Below are positions 6,001-9,000 of a stretch of 13,211 bases of DNA, in pieces. The stretch's first letter is position 1. Each line of letters starts with the position of its first letter. Origin of the DNA: a virus. Its lineage: Duplodnaviria; Heunggongvirae; Uroviricota; Caudoviricetes. The stretch lies in IMG/VR virus record IMGVR_UViG_2695420745_000006. One strand, 5' to 3'. A program made the position numbers.

Positions 6001-9000
6001 TTCTTATTGACGGTCTGCGTGATTTCATTGCTGACATCCGTAATGGACGTCCTGATTTCAGCCAGGTCAGGCGCAAGCTGACCGTTATCAATCTGCGTCC
6101 ACAGCTCCTGAGCCAGATGGGTTTTCCCTATCTCGCCTTTGAAAAAATCCAGATAACCGGATGCATCATCACTCGGCTGACCAACAGCCTCCACGAATGC
6201 CGATTTGCCAACGGTGTTCACACTGCGGATATAAAAGTAATAATCATGGCCCGGTTTGATATTGATACTGGCGGCTATCCAGTACAGCGCCGTGCCAAGA
6301 TAGCGTGCTGTGGTTTCAACCTGCCTGATATCCGCAATCCGCTTTTCCGAGAACCAGAACTCAAACTGTACCGTCGGATCATAAACCGCAAGATGCGGCG
6401 TGGCGGTTATCTGAAAATAGCCCGGCGTCAGCTCAATCCGCGACAGCGCTGCCGGTGCGGCAATCCGGAACGATACCGACGCCGGATCGCCCTGCTGCCC
6501 CCACGCATTTACTGCCCGGACTGTCAGCCTGTAGTTCCCCAGCGCCAGTTGTGTGAAGCGGTAAGTGGTTTCCGTCGTCCGGGCCGTGCTGACCAGCCGC
6601 TCACTGCCGTCATCCGCTGTTACGGTCAGACGGAGCAGGAAGCTCACGCCCTTCACCACCTTCGGCGTGTCCCAGCGCGCCAGCACCTGATATTCCCCGC
6701 TGTCTGCGGTGACTTCGGCAGTCAGGTGCTGCACCGCTGGCGGCGTGACACCATTCACCGTGCCGCTCTGGTCGCCGTCAAAGTGCGCCCCGTTATCCAC
6801 GATGGCTTCTTTTTCCGGCACATGCTGCACGGCGGTGATGGCATACGTGCCGTCGTCGTTCTCACGGATACTCACGCAGCGGAACAATCGCTGGTGCAGC
6901 GTCGGCAGCTTCAGCCCCCACACGCTGTATTCAGCAACACCGTCAGGAACACGGCTCACTTTTACCTTCACGCCGTCGGTGACGGACTGGACCTCCACGC
7001 TGACCGGATTCCCCTGCCCGTCAACCAGGCTTATCAGCGTGGTGCCGGAGGATGGCAGCGTGATTTCACGGTCGAGCGTCAGCGTCCGGGTCTGGCTGTT
7101 CACCGCCAGCACGCGCCCGCCGGTGCGGATACCGGCATAGTCATCATCGCAGATTTCAATGACATCGCCCGGTACATGACGAAGCCCTTCAGCACCCACG
7201 CTGAAATCCACGGTCTGCGTCTCCAGCAGTTCCGTTTTAATCAGCCACAGCCCGGCGCGGTGTGCCTGCCCCCGGCTGGTACAGCCAAAGGCATCCATCT
7301 TCGTGACGTTACGACCGTAACGGACAATGGCCTGCGTATCCTCCACAAGCTCTGTCGCCGTCNNNNNNNGTCTTTCTGGCTGGCGGTTCAGGGTATTTGA
7401 GGTAGCGTCTGACCGTCCGTTCAGAGCAACCAATCTGAGTCGCAATATCGACGATGTACGCGCCCTGCTGGCGCATTTGCTTTATCATGTAAAAGTCCTC
7501 TCTGCTCAGCATGTTGATGTCCTTTCTGGTGTGAGAACCTTAAGGAAACAACATGTTGGGTGGAGCGGACAATCCAAATGGCGAATTACCGTCTTATATC
7601 ACTGGCGCTGACACTTCATCACCTCCGGACGTAAATCACCATCCTTTGGTGCATTCAGAAACGCGTTCAGTGTCCCCGGTGCATCAGTCGGTGCCACATC
7701 AATATCCCCGACACGGGTTGGCTGCCAGCCGTTACAGTGAAGCGCAACCTCGTAATACCCCGGCTCAGCCTCAATCACATAAGCACCGTTATTGTCCGTC
7801 ACGCAAGTGGCAACAACGTGTGCCACAACGGTCGGACTGGTTCTTCTGGCCCGCAGTTCAATCGCACAATTTACGACAGGTTTACCCGCCCCATCTTTCA
7901 GTACACCTGAAATCTTTACTGCCATATTCACCCCACAAAAAGCCCGCCTGAACCAGCGGGCAGTCATAACACTGTGTTACCTGGCTAATCAGAACTTATA
8001 ACCGACACCCACGATGAAACCGTCAGTGCGCCAGTCACCACTGCCGGAACCTTCATAAGCAAGGTCAATGGCCACGGATTCGGTCGGGTTAAACTGCACG
8101 CCAGCCCCCCACGCCAGAGACGTGTTGCTGTGGCGACCGCCATCACTTCCGGTCAGCACATCGTGCGTTTTCCCCTTGTTGTCAGTTACGCGGAGATAAT
8201 CCCCGGAGAAGGTCGACACACGGCTGTAAGCCACGCCCGCCATCGCATACGCGCTGAACCATTCATTCACGCGCACAGACGGCCCCGCCATCACGCTGAA
8301 CCAGCGGTTACGCACGGAATCCTCATGCCAGCGGGTATCGCTGTAATGCGTTTTTTGCTCATCTTCAGCGTTGGCATAACTGAATGACGTAATCAGCCCC
8401 AGCGTGTCCGTAAACTCATAACGGTATTTCACGTTAATGCCCTTCAGGTCATCGCTGCCTGGCATATCAGTATGGGTCTGAAGATACCCGGCGCTCAGCG
8501 TGGACTGATGTTCAGACGCCCATGCAGGCGCACCGGATACGGCCAGACAGATGGCTGCGGACAAAATGGCTGCACAAACTTTACGCATAATTACCTCTCG
8601 CTTTTCTGCAATAAAAAAGGCACCATTTCTGGTGCCCGTATCTGGGTTATAAAATTCAGCTAATCGTGATGCCTGCAGTGGCTTTCTTCATCACCACAAC
8701 CAGCAAATCGCTGATACTTGCTGTGGGATACCAGCCATTTACCAGCCATGCCGATACAGAAAACTCCAGCGTCATGTGACCGTGACCGGCAGGCATATCA
8801 ATAACACCCGTATATATCAGCGTATTATCCAGGGTCGTTCGGTTATAAATTTCAGCACCGTTTTTCTTCACTATCAGGCGGCATGACGAATAAATATTGT
8901 TATTCTTCCGCTCATGTTTAGCACCGCGAAACGCCACCGCGGGAATAACAATTTGCCGATCAAACGGCTGATCGTCATAAACCCTGACGGTAATGGTCCC

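What the first reader, a model, noticed from the sequence alone, without database searches (positions are those of the whole stretch)
7371..7925. IS21-family-like element inserted in stf of a second prophage
The stf reading frame follows Stf for about 104 codons, then runs straight into the IS terminus (TGTCAG on the minus strand at 7613) and stops 5 codons later. This prophage cannot make side tail fibres. That parallels the stf-defective laboratory lambda and is consistent with a decaying or cryptic prophage. The IS itself is cut by the scaffold gap, as expected for a repeat.
Basis: partly seen in the sequence, partly recalled or inferred. Interest (0 to 1): 0.5.

Follow-up and report, generated by a model that had tools for sequence, protein, structure and literature searches.

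The report
IS21 copy truncating a prophage stf
A side-tail-fibre gene in a decayed lambda-like prophage of Shigella sonnei is cut after codon 104 by the left end of an IS21 element; this is real but ordinary and already present in annotated public genomes.

Summary
On the minus strand, an ORF starts at 7925 and matches phage lambda Stf for exactly 104 codons. At 7614|7613 it runs into the left terminus (TGTCAG...) of an IS21-type insertion sequence and stops after four IS-encoded codons (CQRQ*). The 244 nt of IS (7370-7613) are 100% identical to full-length 2130-bp istA/istB elements, which make 4-bp target duplications. The IS fragment ends at a 7-N scaffold gap.

The same junction occurs in the finished Shigella sonnei FORC_011 chromosome and in seven S. 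sonnei draft contigs, so it is not an assembly artefact. It is absent from 5,426 complete E. coli genomes.

Finished sequence adds detail. The IS21 copy is itself a wreck:
- Only nt 1-1098 survive.
- A full IS600 splits it at nt 428.
- A second, 5'-truncated IS600 cuts it off.
- stf resumes only at nt 746.

The right IS end, istB, 433 nt of stf and the target-site duplication are therefore all deleted. The prophage also lacks about 17 kb, from the lysis genes to the tape-measure gene.

The verdict is a routine IS-mediated pseudogene in a cryptic Shigella prophage. It was already annotated as "IS21 ORF1" fragments in strain Ss046. Interest is low.

The parts
7614..7925 (-). 5' remnant of the side-tail-fibre gene stf: nt 1-312, codons 1-104, covering most of the PF08400 N-terminal domain.
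   Evidence: Translation. It is 52% identical to lambda orf-401 residues 1-104. PF08400 E=1e-36. It is 312/312 identical to the intact EIEC stf.
7599..7613 (-). IS-encoded tail of the fused stf' ORF: TGT CAG CGC CAG TGA, giving CQRQ and a stop. It lies inside the IS21 left end.
   Evidence: The exact 108-aa product is ALZ55769.1 (FORC11_1838) of S. sonnei.
7370..7613 (-). Left end (nt 1-244) of a 2130-bp IS21-type insertion sequence. It points the same way as stf and is cut by the scaffold gap.
   Evidence: It is 244/244 identical to full-length istA/istB elements. The ends were defined on copies L011-L014.
7603..7613 (-). Terminal inverted repeat of the left end, TGTCAGCGCCA. It matches the right-end repeat TGTCAACGCCA of full copies at 10 of 11 positions.
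7372..7512 (-). First 47 codons of istA (the helix-turn-helix region): MLSREDFYMIKQMRQQGAYIVDIATQIGCSERTVRRYLKYPEPPARK.
   Evidence: NF033546 positions 1-38, E=3.4e-5. A full-length IstA of a near-identical copy scores 278 bits against a cut-off of 160.
7363..7369 (.). Scaffold gap of 7 N. The sequence to its left (up to 7362) is an internal part of a J gene from a different contig.
7989..8588 (-). Intact lom (199 aa), immediately upstream of stf' as in lambda.
   Evidence: PF06316 matched over its full length, E=4e-129. It is 45% identical to lambda Lom.
8656..10120 (-). 3' part of the tail-tip gene J from the same contig. J is complete (1159 aa) in the finished genome.
   Evidence: Window 7370-10120 is colinear with L003 10556-7806 at 99.6% identity. 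Gene table.

Best explanation
The window's piece 7370-10120 comes from a degraded lambdoid prophage remnant of Shigella sonnei, the one next to sitABCD in strain FORC_011. I infer the following history.

An IS21-type element (2130 bp, istA+istB, 4-bp target duplication) transposed into stf between nt 312 and 313. Its left end faces the stf start, and istA points the same way as stf. The stf frame therefore reads 104 Stf codons, then four IS codons and a TGA. The product is a 108-aa stub that lacks even the end of the N-terminal domain, the whole shaft and the receptor-binding part, so no side tail fibre can be made.

Later events, visible only in finished genomes, wrecked the IS itself. A full 1264-bp IS600 inserted at IS21 nt 428 with a GTT duplication. 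A deletion then fused IS21 nt 1098 to nt 88 of a second IS600 that sits at stf nt 745/746. That deletion removed the 3' end of istA, all of istB, the right IS end, the target duplication and stf nt 313-745.

Shown directly:
- the junction;
- the identity of both partners;
- the nested structure in finished sequence;
- the loss of about 17 kb of prophage genes.

Inferred:
- the order of events;
- that the original event was a simple insertion;
- that the window's own strain has the same downstream structure.
For: - Junction: it is exact at 7613|7614, as shown by comparison with intact stf and with five IS copies.
- IS identity: 244/244 identical to PGAP-annotated IS21 copies. Four full copies are 2130 bp with 4-bp duplications GATG, CTTT, ACTC and TAAC.
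- Stf identity.
- Independent occurrences: the exact 108-aa fusion product is encoded on S. sonnei FORC_011 (CP010829.1) and seven Holt-collection drafts. All carry the identical 36-nt junction.
- Match to finished sequence: window 7370-9846 is 100% identical to FORC_011. All 12 mismatches lie in the J repeat at 9847-10105.
- Map of the finished locus: stf 1-312 | IS21 1-428 | IS600 (1264 bp, TSD GTT) | IS21 426-1098 | IS600 88-1264 | stf 746-1413.
- Other finished genomes: the two broken IstA products (109 aa and 238 aa) occur with exactly these sequences in Ss046 (AAZ88447, AAZ88444, 'IS21 ORF1'). The 238-aa product is also in strain 75/02. The two products are seen on 281 and 40 contigs.
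- Population spread: contig-end partial Stf proteins of 99, 102 and 104 aa from S. sonnei occur on more than 1000 contigs. S. boydii and S. flexneri partials read through as ...MKRFEE.
- Prophage decay: the remnant lacks 17.4 kb relative to the intact EIEC prophage.
Against: - The window holds only 244 nt of the IS, so the state of the rest of the element in this particular strain is unseen.
- The right IS end and the 4-bp duplication (expected GAAG on the stf strand) are missing everywhere I could look. A simple insertion therefore cannot be formally told apart from an IS-end-mediated rearrangement.
- Only three finished S. sonnei genomes were reached, and those indirectly through exact protein look-ups. 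No Shigella DNA collection was available.
Confidence: 0.94

Rival explanations
1. The stf'/IS junction is an assembly or scaffolding chimera. Two unrelated contigs, or a collapsed repeat, were joined, and stf is intact in the real genome.
For: The window is clearly a patchwork. It has three N runs, a 2.4-kb piece (10792-13211) that duplicates 4845-7264 at 99.9%, and artificial ORFs that cross the gaps.
Against: - The junction lies 243 nt inside a gap-free piece, not at a gap.
- The identical 36-nt junction is in the finished FORC_011 chromosome and seven independently assembled drafts.
- More than 1000 S. sonnei contigs break at or within five codons of this position, as expected for a real repeat boundary.
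Confidence: 0.01
2. The junction was not made by a simple insertion into stf. It was made by an IS21-end-mediated intramolecular event: an adjacent deletion or inversion from an IS21 copy already sitting downstream. In that case stf nt 313-745 were lost in the same step and no target duplication ever flanked the element.
For: No right end and no duplication survive in finished sequence, and 433 nt of stf are missing. IS-rich Shigella genomes rearrange often (PMC8072062, title and abstract listed).
Against: - The distal stf part lies downstream in the same orientation, in the order a simple insertion predicts.
- The IS21 remnant ends at an internal position (nt 1098) fused to an internal position of IS600 (nt 88). 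That points to a later, separate deletion.
- Four other copies of this IS are simple insertions with 4-bp duplications.
Confidence: 0.05

Closest known systems
IS21 (IS21 family, istA/istB). PGAP annotates copies in EIEC and Shigella chromosomes and pINV-type plasmids as 'IS21-like element IS21 family'.
   Same: - The window's 244 nt are 100% identical to full-length copies.
- Full copies are 2130 bp with a TGTCAG.../...TTGACA terminal repeat, istA followed by istB, and 4-bp duplications.
- IS21 is one of the 12 IS types listed for S. sonnei 53G (PMC7373316).
   Different: This copy is a remnant. In the window only nt 1-244 are seen. In finished genomes only nt 1-1098 survive, split by IS600, with no istB, right end or duplication. 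I did not compare it with the type IS21 of plasmid R68.45, because no ISfinder was available.
The stf frameshift of laboratory phage lambda (lambda PaPa; orf-401 and orf-314).
   Same: The same gene, in the same J-lom-stf position, is inactivated, so no side tail fibres are made. The reference lambda record shows stf split into orf-401 and orf-314. The homology covers residues 1-104.
   Different: Lambda's defect is a single-base frameshift in a phage that is otherwise fully viable (established knowledge, Hendrix and Duda 1992, not re-tested here). Here the cause is an IS insertion plus a 433-nt deletion, in a prophage that has also lost its lysis, head and tail-shaft genes.
IS-driven pseudogene formation and prophage decay in Shigella (Hawkey et al. 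2020, PMC7373316; the S. sonnei Ss046 genome annotation).
   Same: It is a typical case: a multi-copy IS interrupts a gene, further IS600 copies nest in it, and a deletion follows. The pieces are already annotated in Ss046 as 'IS21 ORF1' (AAZ88444, AAZ88447).
   Different: I found no paper that discusses this particular stf disruption. It is a catalogued locus, not a described one.
The intact homologous prophage of EIEC CFSAN029787 (NZ_CP011416.1, 361.5-408.4 kb).
   Same: It is 98% identical over tail genes L through stf nt 312, with 100% identity over those 312 nt. It has the same J-lom-stf-DUF4376 order.
   Different: The EIEC prophage is complete from integrase to tail fibre, with an uninterrupted 470-aa Stf, and it sits at a different chromosomal site (near mlrA/btsS rather than sitABCD).

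Membership tests
IS21 family insertion sequence | An IstA transposase with an N-terminal helix-turn-helix and a DDE catalytic core. | tested here: met
   The window's 47 aa match NF033546 positions 1-38 (E=3.4e-5). The score is below the whole-protein cut-off only because this is a fragment. The IstA of a near-identical full copy scores 278 bits against a cut-off of 160. The DNA is 244/244 identical to full copies. The DDE core itself lies beyond the gap.
IS21 family insertion sequence | An IstB helper ATPase gene immediately downstream of istA. | not testable with these tools
   It would lie beyond the scaffold gap in the window. It is present in identical full-length copies elsewhere. It is deleted from this locus in finished S. 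sonnei FORC_011, where the IS ends at nt 1098.
IS21 family insertion sequence | Terminal inverted repeats ending 5'-TG...CA-3'. | tested here: met
   The left end TGTCAGCGCCA sits at 7613-7603 on the minus strand. Full copies have the right end ...TGGCGTTGACA, a 10/11 match as an inverted repeat. No right end is present in the window.
IS21 family insertion sequence | A short target-site duplication (4 bp for this element). | tested here: inconclusive
   Four full copies have 4-bp duplications. At this locus the right flank is deleted in finished sequence, so the expected GAAG repeat cannot be checked.
Lambda-type side tail fibre Stf (Pfam PF08400 N-terminal domain) | The N-terminal 'prophage tail fibre N-terminal' domain. 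| tested here: met
   PF08400 E=1e-36, profile positions 1-104 of 134. It is 52% identical to lambda Stf residues 1-104.
Lambda-type side tail fibre Stf (Pfam PF08400 N-terminal domain) | Position directly after J and lom in the late operon. | tested here: met
   lom is at 7989-8588 and the 3' part of J at 8656-10120, on the same strand. The order is the same in lambda and in FORC_011.
Lambda-type side tail fibre Stf (Pfam PF08400 N-terminal domain) | A complete shaft and C-terminal receptor-binding part, that is, a functional gene. | tested here: not met
   The ORF stops at residue 108, against 470 aa in the intact EIEC homologue. In finished sequence nt 313-745 are deleted, and the distal 668 nt lie 3.5 kb away with no start codon.

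The most novel reading that the evidence does not exclude
The stf'-IS21 junction may be fixed across S. sonnei. In that case the retained block (intact M, L, K, I, J and lom, plus the 108-aa Stf stub) would not be mere debris. It would be kept because part of it is useful to the host, for example Lom as an outer-membrane factor, or the tail-tip genes as a domesticated module. The IS insertion would then mark the point where selection stops. Nothing I ran tests for selection. The evidence shows only that these ORFs are intact in FORC_011 and that the junction is widespread.
Probability: 0.04. Interest if true: 0.3.

Novelty: already known. Interest (0 to 1): 0.07.

Why it matters
It matters little beyond bookkeeping. 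The junction is a clean, sequence-exact marker that places this piece of the window in Shigella sonnei. It also shows, in miniature, how Shigella prophages decay: an IS insertion, an IS nested within that IS, then a deletion. It also shows that the scaffold around it should not be read as a true gene order.

Tried and rejected
- IS end 10 nt further out. The first megablast suggested the IS match might extend to 7623 and overlap the stf match. Reading the flanks of five IS copies showed this was a chance resemblance in one flank. All copies diverge right after ...CTGACA.
- Right IS end in the window. I searched for TGTCAACGCCACGATGTTTGACC with up to 3 mismatches and found none.
- Junction in other collections. 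The 36-nt junction gave 0 matches in one genome per bacterial species and 0 in JGI metagenome contigs. No place in 5,426 complete E. coli genomes covers both halves.
- NCBIfam on the Stf stub. It gave only a spurious sub-threshold hit to protocatechuate dioxygenase (19 bits against a cut-off of 296). Pfam gave the real answer.
- Recombination between the two IS600 copies as the cause of the deletion. I rejected this as stated, because the copies are in inverted orientation and the second is truncated internally at nt 88. The joint is an illegitimate IS21-nt-1098 / IS600-nt-88 fusion.
- Comparison with the type IS21 sequence and with ISfinder. This was not possible with the tools available.

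Full report
**What is in the sequence**

The window has three N runs, at 7363-7369, 10121-10141 and 10791. The finding lies in the gap-free piece 7370-10120.

On the minus strand an ORF starts at ATG 7925 and ends at the TGA at 7601-7599. It gives 108 aa: [12 protein letters not shown]...DLRPEVMK-CQRQ*.

- Residues 1-104 align without gaps to residues 1-104 of lambda Stf (orf-401) at 52% identity, E=6e-33.
- They match Pfam PF08400 'Prophage tail fibre N-terminal' over profile positions 1-104 of 134, E=1e-36.
- Upstream on the same strand are an intact lom (7989-8588, full-length PF06316, 45% identical to lambda Lom) and the 3' part of J. This is the lambda order J-lom-stf.

A second minus-strand frame starts at ATG 7512 and gives 47 aa before the gap. 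It matches the N-terminus of NCBIfam NF033546, 'IS21 family transposase'.

**Where the boundary is**

A megablast of 7371-7925 against 5,426 complete E. coli genomes split the query in two.

- Window 7614-7925 is 100% identical to the 5' end of 'prophage tail fiber N-terminal domain-containing protein' genes in a handful of enteroinvasive E. coli.
- Window 7371-7623 matched 'IS21-like element IS21 family' copies.

The 10-nt overlap was a chance resemblance in one flank. In the intact EIEC stf the sequence reads ...CTCAAAGCG|CTTCATCACC..., and in the window it reads ...GCGCTGACA|CTTCATCACC.... Five independent IS copies all share ...CACTGGCGCTGACA and then diverge completely.

The fragment 7370-7613 is 244/244 identical to many full copies.

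**What the element is**

I read four full-length copies (L011-L014).

- Each is 2130 bp.
- Each carries istA (390 aa) followed by istB.
- The ends are TGTCAGCGCCA... and ...TGGCGTTGACA.
- Each is flanked by a 4-bp target duplication: GATG, CTTT, ACTC and TAAC.

The IstA of another near-identical full copy (L002) scores 278 bits on NF033546 against a cut-off of 160. PGAP names these copies 'IS21-like element IS21 family' transposase and helper ATPase. The element is widespread on enterobacterial plasmids. The IS21-family assignment is therefore sound. The window holds only the left end, which lies in the same direction as stf.

**Is the junction real, and whose is it?**

An exact look-up of the 108-aa fusion product found it on eight public contigs.

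- One is the finished 4.82-Mb chromosome CP010829.1, where it is 'hypothetical protein FORC11_1838 [Shigella sonnei]'. PMC5447701 lists this accession as S. sonnei FORC_011.
- The other seven are CX* draft contigs. This accession series belongs to the Holt et al. S. sonnei collection.
- All eight carry the identical 36-nt junction.

Window 7370-10120 is colinear with FORC_011 with 12 mismatches and no gaps. All 12 lie at 9847-10105, in the repeated J gene near the contig end.

Contig-end partial proteins of 99, 102 and 104 aa, labelled S. sonnei, occur on more than 1000 contigs. That is the expected signature of short-read assemblies breaking at an IS. Partials from S. boydii and S. flexneri read through the site as ...MKRFEE....

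The junction is absent from all 5,426 complete E. coli genomes, from one genome per bacterial species and from JGI metagenome contigs. So it is real, it is widespread in S. sonnei, and as far as these collections show it is specific to that lineage.

**What finished sequence shows beyond the gap**

I mapped FORC_011 (L003) against intact stf, a full IS21 copy and IS600.

| L003 coordinates | Content |
|---|---|
| 10001-10312 | stf nt 1-312 |
| 10313-10740 | IS21 nt 1-428 |
| 10741-12004 | Complete 1264-bp IS600, opposite orientation, with a GTT duplication |
| 12005-12677 | IS21 nt 426-1098 |
| 12678-13854 | Second IS600, lacking its first 87 nt |
| 13855-14525 | stf nt 746-1413 |
| 14476-15099 and beyond | DUF4376 gene (it overlaps the stf end), then sitDCBA |

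The following are gone: IS21 nt 1099-2130 (the end of istA, all of istB and the right terminus), stf nt 313-745, the expected GAAG duplication, and the left 87 nt of the second IS600.

The two broken IstA products (109 aa and 238 aa) exist with exactly these sequences in S. sonnei Ss046, annotated 'IS21 ORF1' (AAZ88447 and AAZ88444). The 238-aa product is also in strain 75/02. The two are seen on 281 and 40 contigs respectively. The nested structure is therefore shared among finished S. sonnei genomes and has been in public annotation since the Ss046 genome.

**State of the prophage**

The homologous prophage in EIEC CFSAN029787 is complete from integrase to a 470-aa Stf. In FORC_011, about 17.4 kb is replaced by about 1.5 kb of IS material. 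That stretch covers holin, lysozyme, terminase, portal, capsid, tail tube and all but the last 341 nt of the tape-measure gene.

**Mechanism and rivals**

The most likely history has three steps:

1. A simple IS21 transposition into stf at nt 312/313.
2. An IS600 insertion into istA.
3. An illegitimate deletion fusing IS21 nt 1098 to nt 88 of an IS600 that sat at stf nt 745/746.

The junction and the structure are shown directly. The order of events, and the assumption that the first event was a simple insertion, are inferred, because the right end and the duplication no longer exist. An IS-end-mediated adjacent deletion cannot be formally excluded; I put it at about 5%. An assembly chimera is excluded by the independent assemblies.

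**Comparison with what is known, and novelty**

IS21 is one of the 12 IS types listed for S. sonnei 53G and mapped across the population by Hawkey et al. 2020 (PMC7373316). That paper documents IS-driven pseudogene formation as the norm in Shigella. The parallel with laboratory lambda's defective stf is apt as to the gene (the reference record splits stf into orf-401 and orf-314), but the lesion is of a different kind. This is an already-known, annotated locus of an ordinary type.

**Caveat on the window**

The four pieces between the N runs are repeat-derived.

- Piece 10792-13211 duplicates 4845-7264 at 99.9%.
- Piece 10142-10790 is an internal J fragment.
- ORFs that cross the gaps, for example 5097..7445 and 7309..7512, are artefacts.

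The order of 'prophages' in the window should not be trusted.

Noticed in passing
window 1-13211 (N runs at 7363-7369, 10121-10141, 10791): The window is a patchwork of four contig pieces from repeated lambdoid tail regions. Piece 10792-13211 is 99.9% identical to 4845-7264. Piece 10142-10790 is an internal J fragment that is 98.6% identical to FORC_011 J just upstream of piece 7370-10120. The order across the gaps is probably not the true genome order.
   Followed up: partly
window 4544-5026 (minus): The lom copy in the left piece is only 160 aa and matches positions 1-159 of the 199-position Ail/Lom profile. Compared with the intact copy at 7989-8588 it lacks about 80 nt near the 3' end. This is either a second pseudogene or an assembly error.
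   Followed up: partly
window 781-4451 (minus): The left piece carries an apparently intact long stf (1029 aa, with PF08400, tail-fibre repeats and a collar domain) followed by tfa (193 aa, PF02413). Below about 780 the sequence drops to 33-38% GC. I did not examine the AT-rich end.
   Followed up: no
window 5097-7445 and 7309-7512 (minus ORFs): These ORFs run across the 7-N gap and fuse J sequence to IS21 sequence. They are artefacts of the scaffold, not genes.
   Followed up: yes
L003 10313-13854 (S. sonnei FORC_011): This is a nested IS wreck. IS21 is split by a complete IS600 (TSD GTT) and then fused at its nt 1098 to nt 88 of a second, inverted IS600. The identical broken IstA products are annotated as 'IS21 ORF1' in Ss046.
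   Followed up: yes
L003 1503-3064, compared with L015 1771-19226: In S. sonnei the prophage has lost about 17.4 kb, from the lysis genes to most of the tape-measure gene, and has about 1.5 kb of IS fragments in its place. M, L, K, I, J and lom nevertheless remain as intact ORFs.
   Followed up: partly
L001, L011, L012, L014 (EIEC strains CFSAN029787, FDAARGOS_943, O121 201805972): The same few enteroinvasive E. coli genomes hold both a stf 5' end that is 100% identical to the window and IS21 copies that are 100% identical to the window's fragment, but at other sites, including pINV-type plasmids. This suggests a shared phage and IS pool between EIEC and S. sonnei.
   Followed up: no
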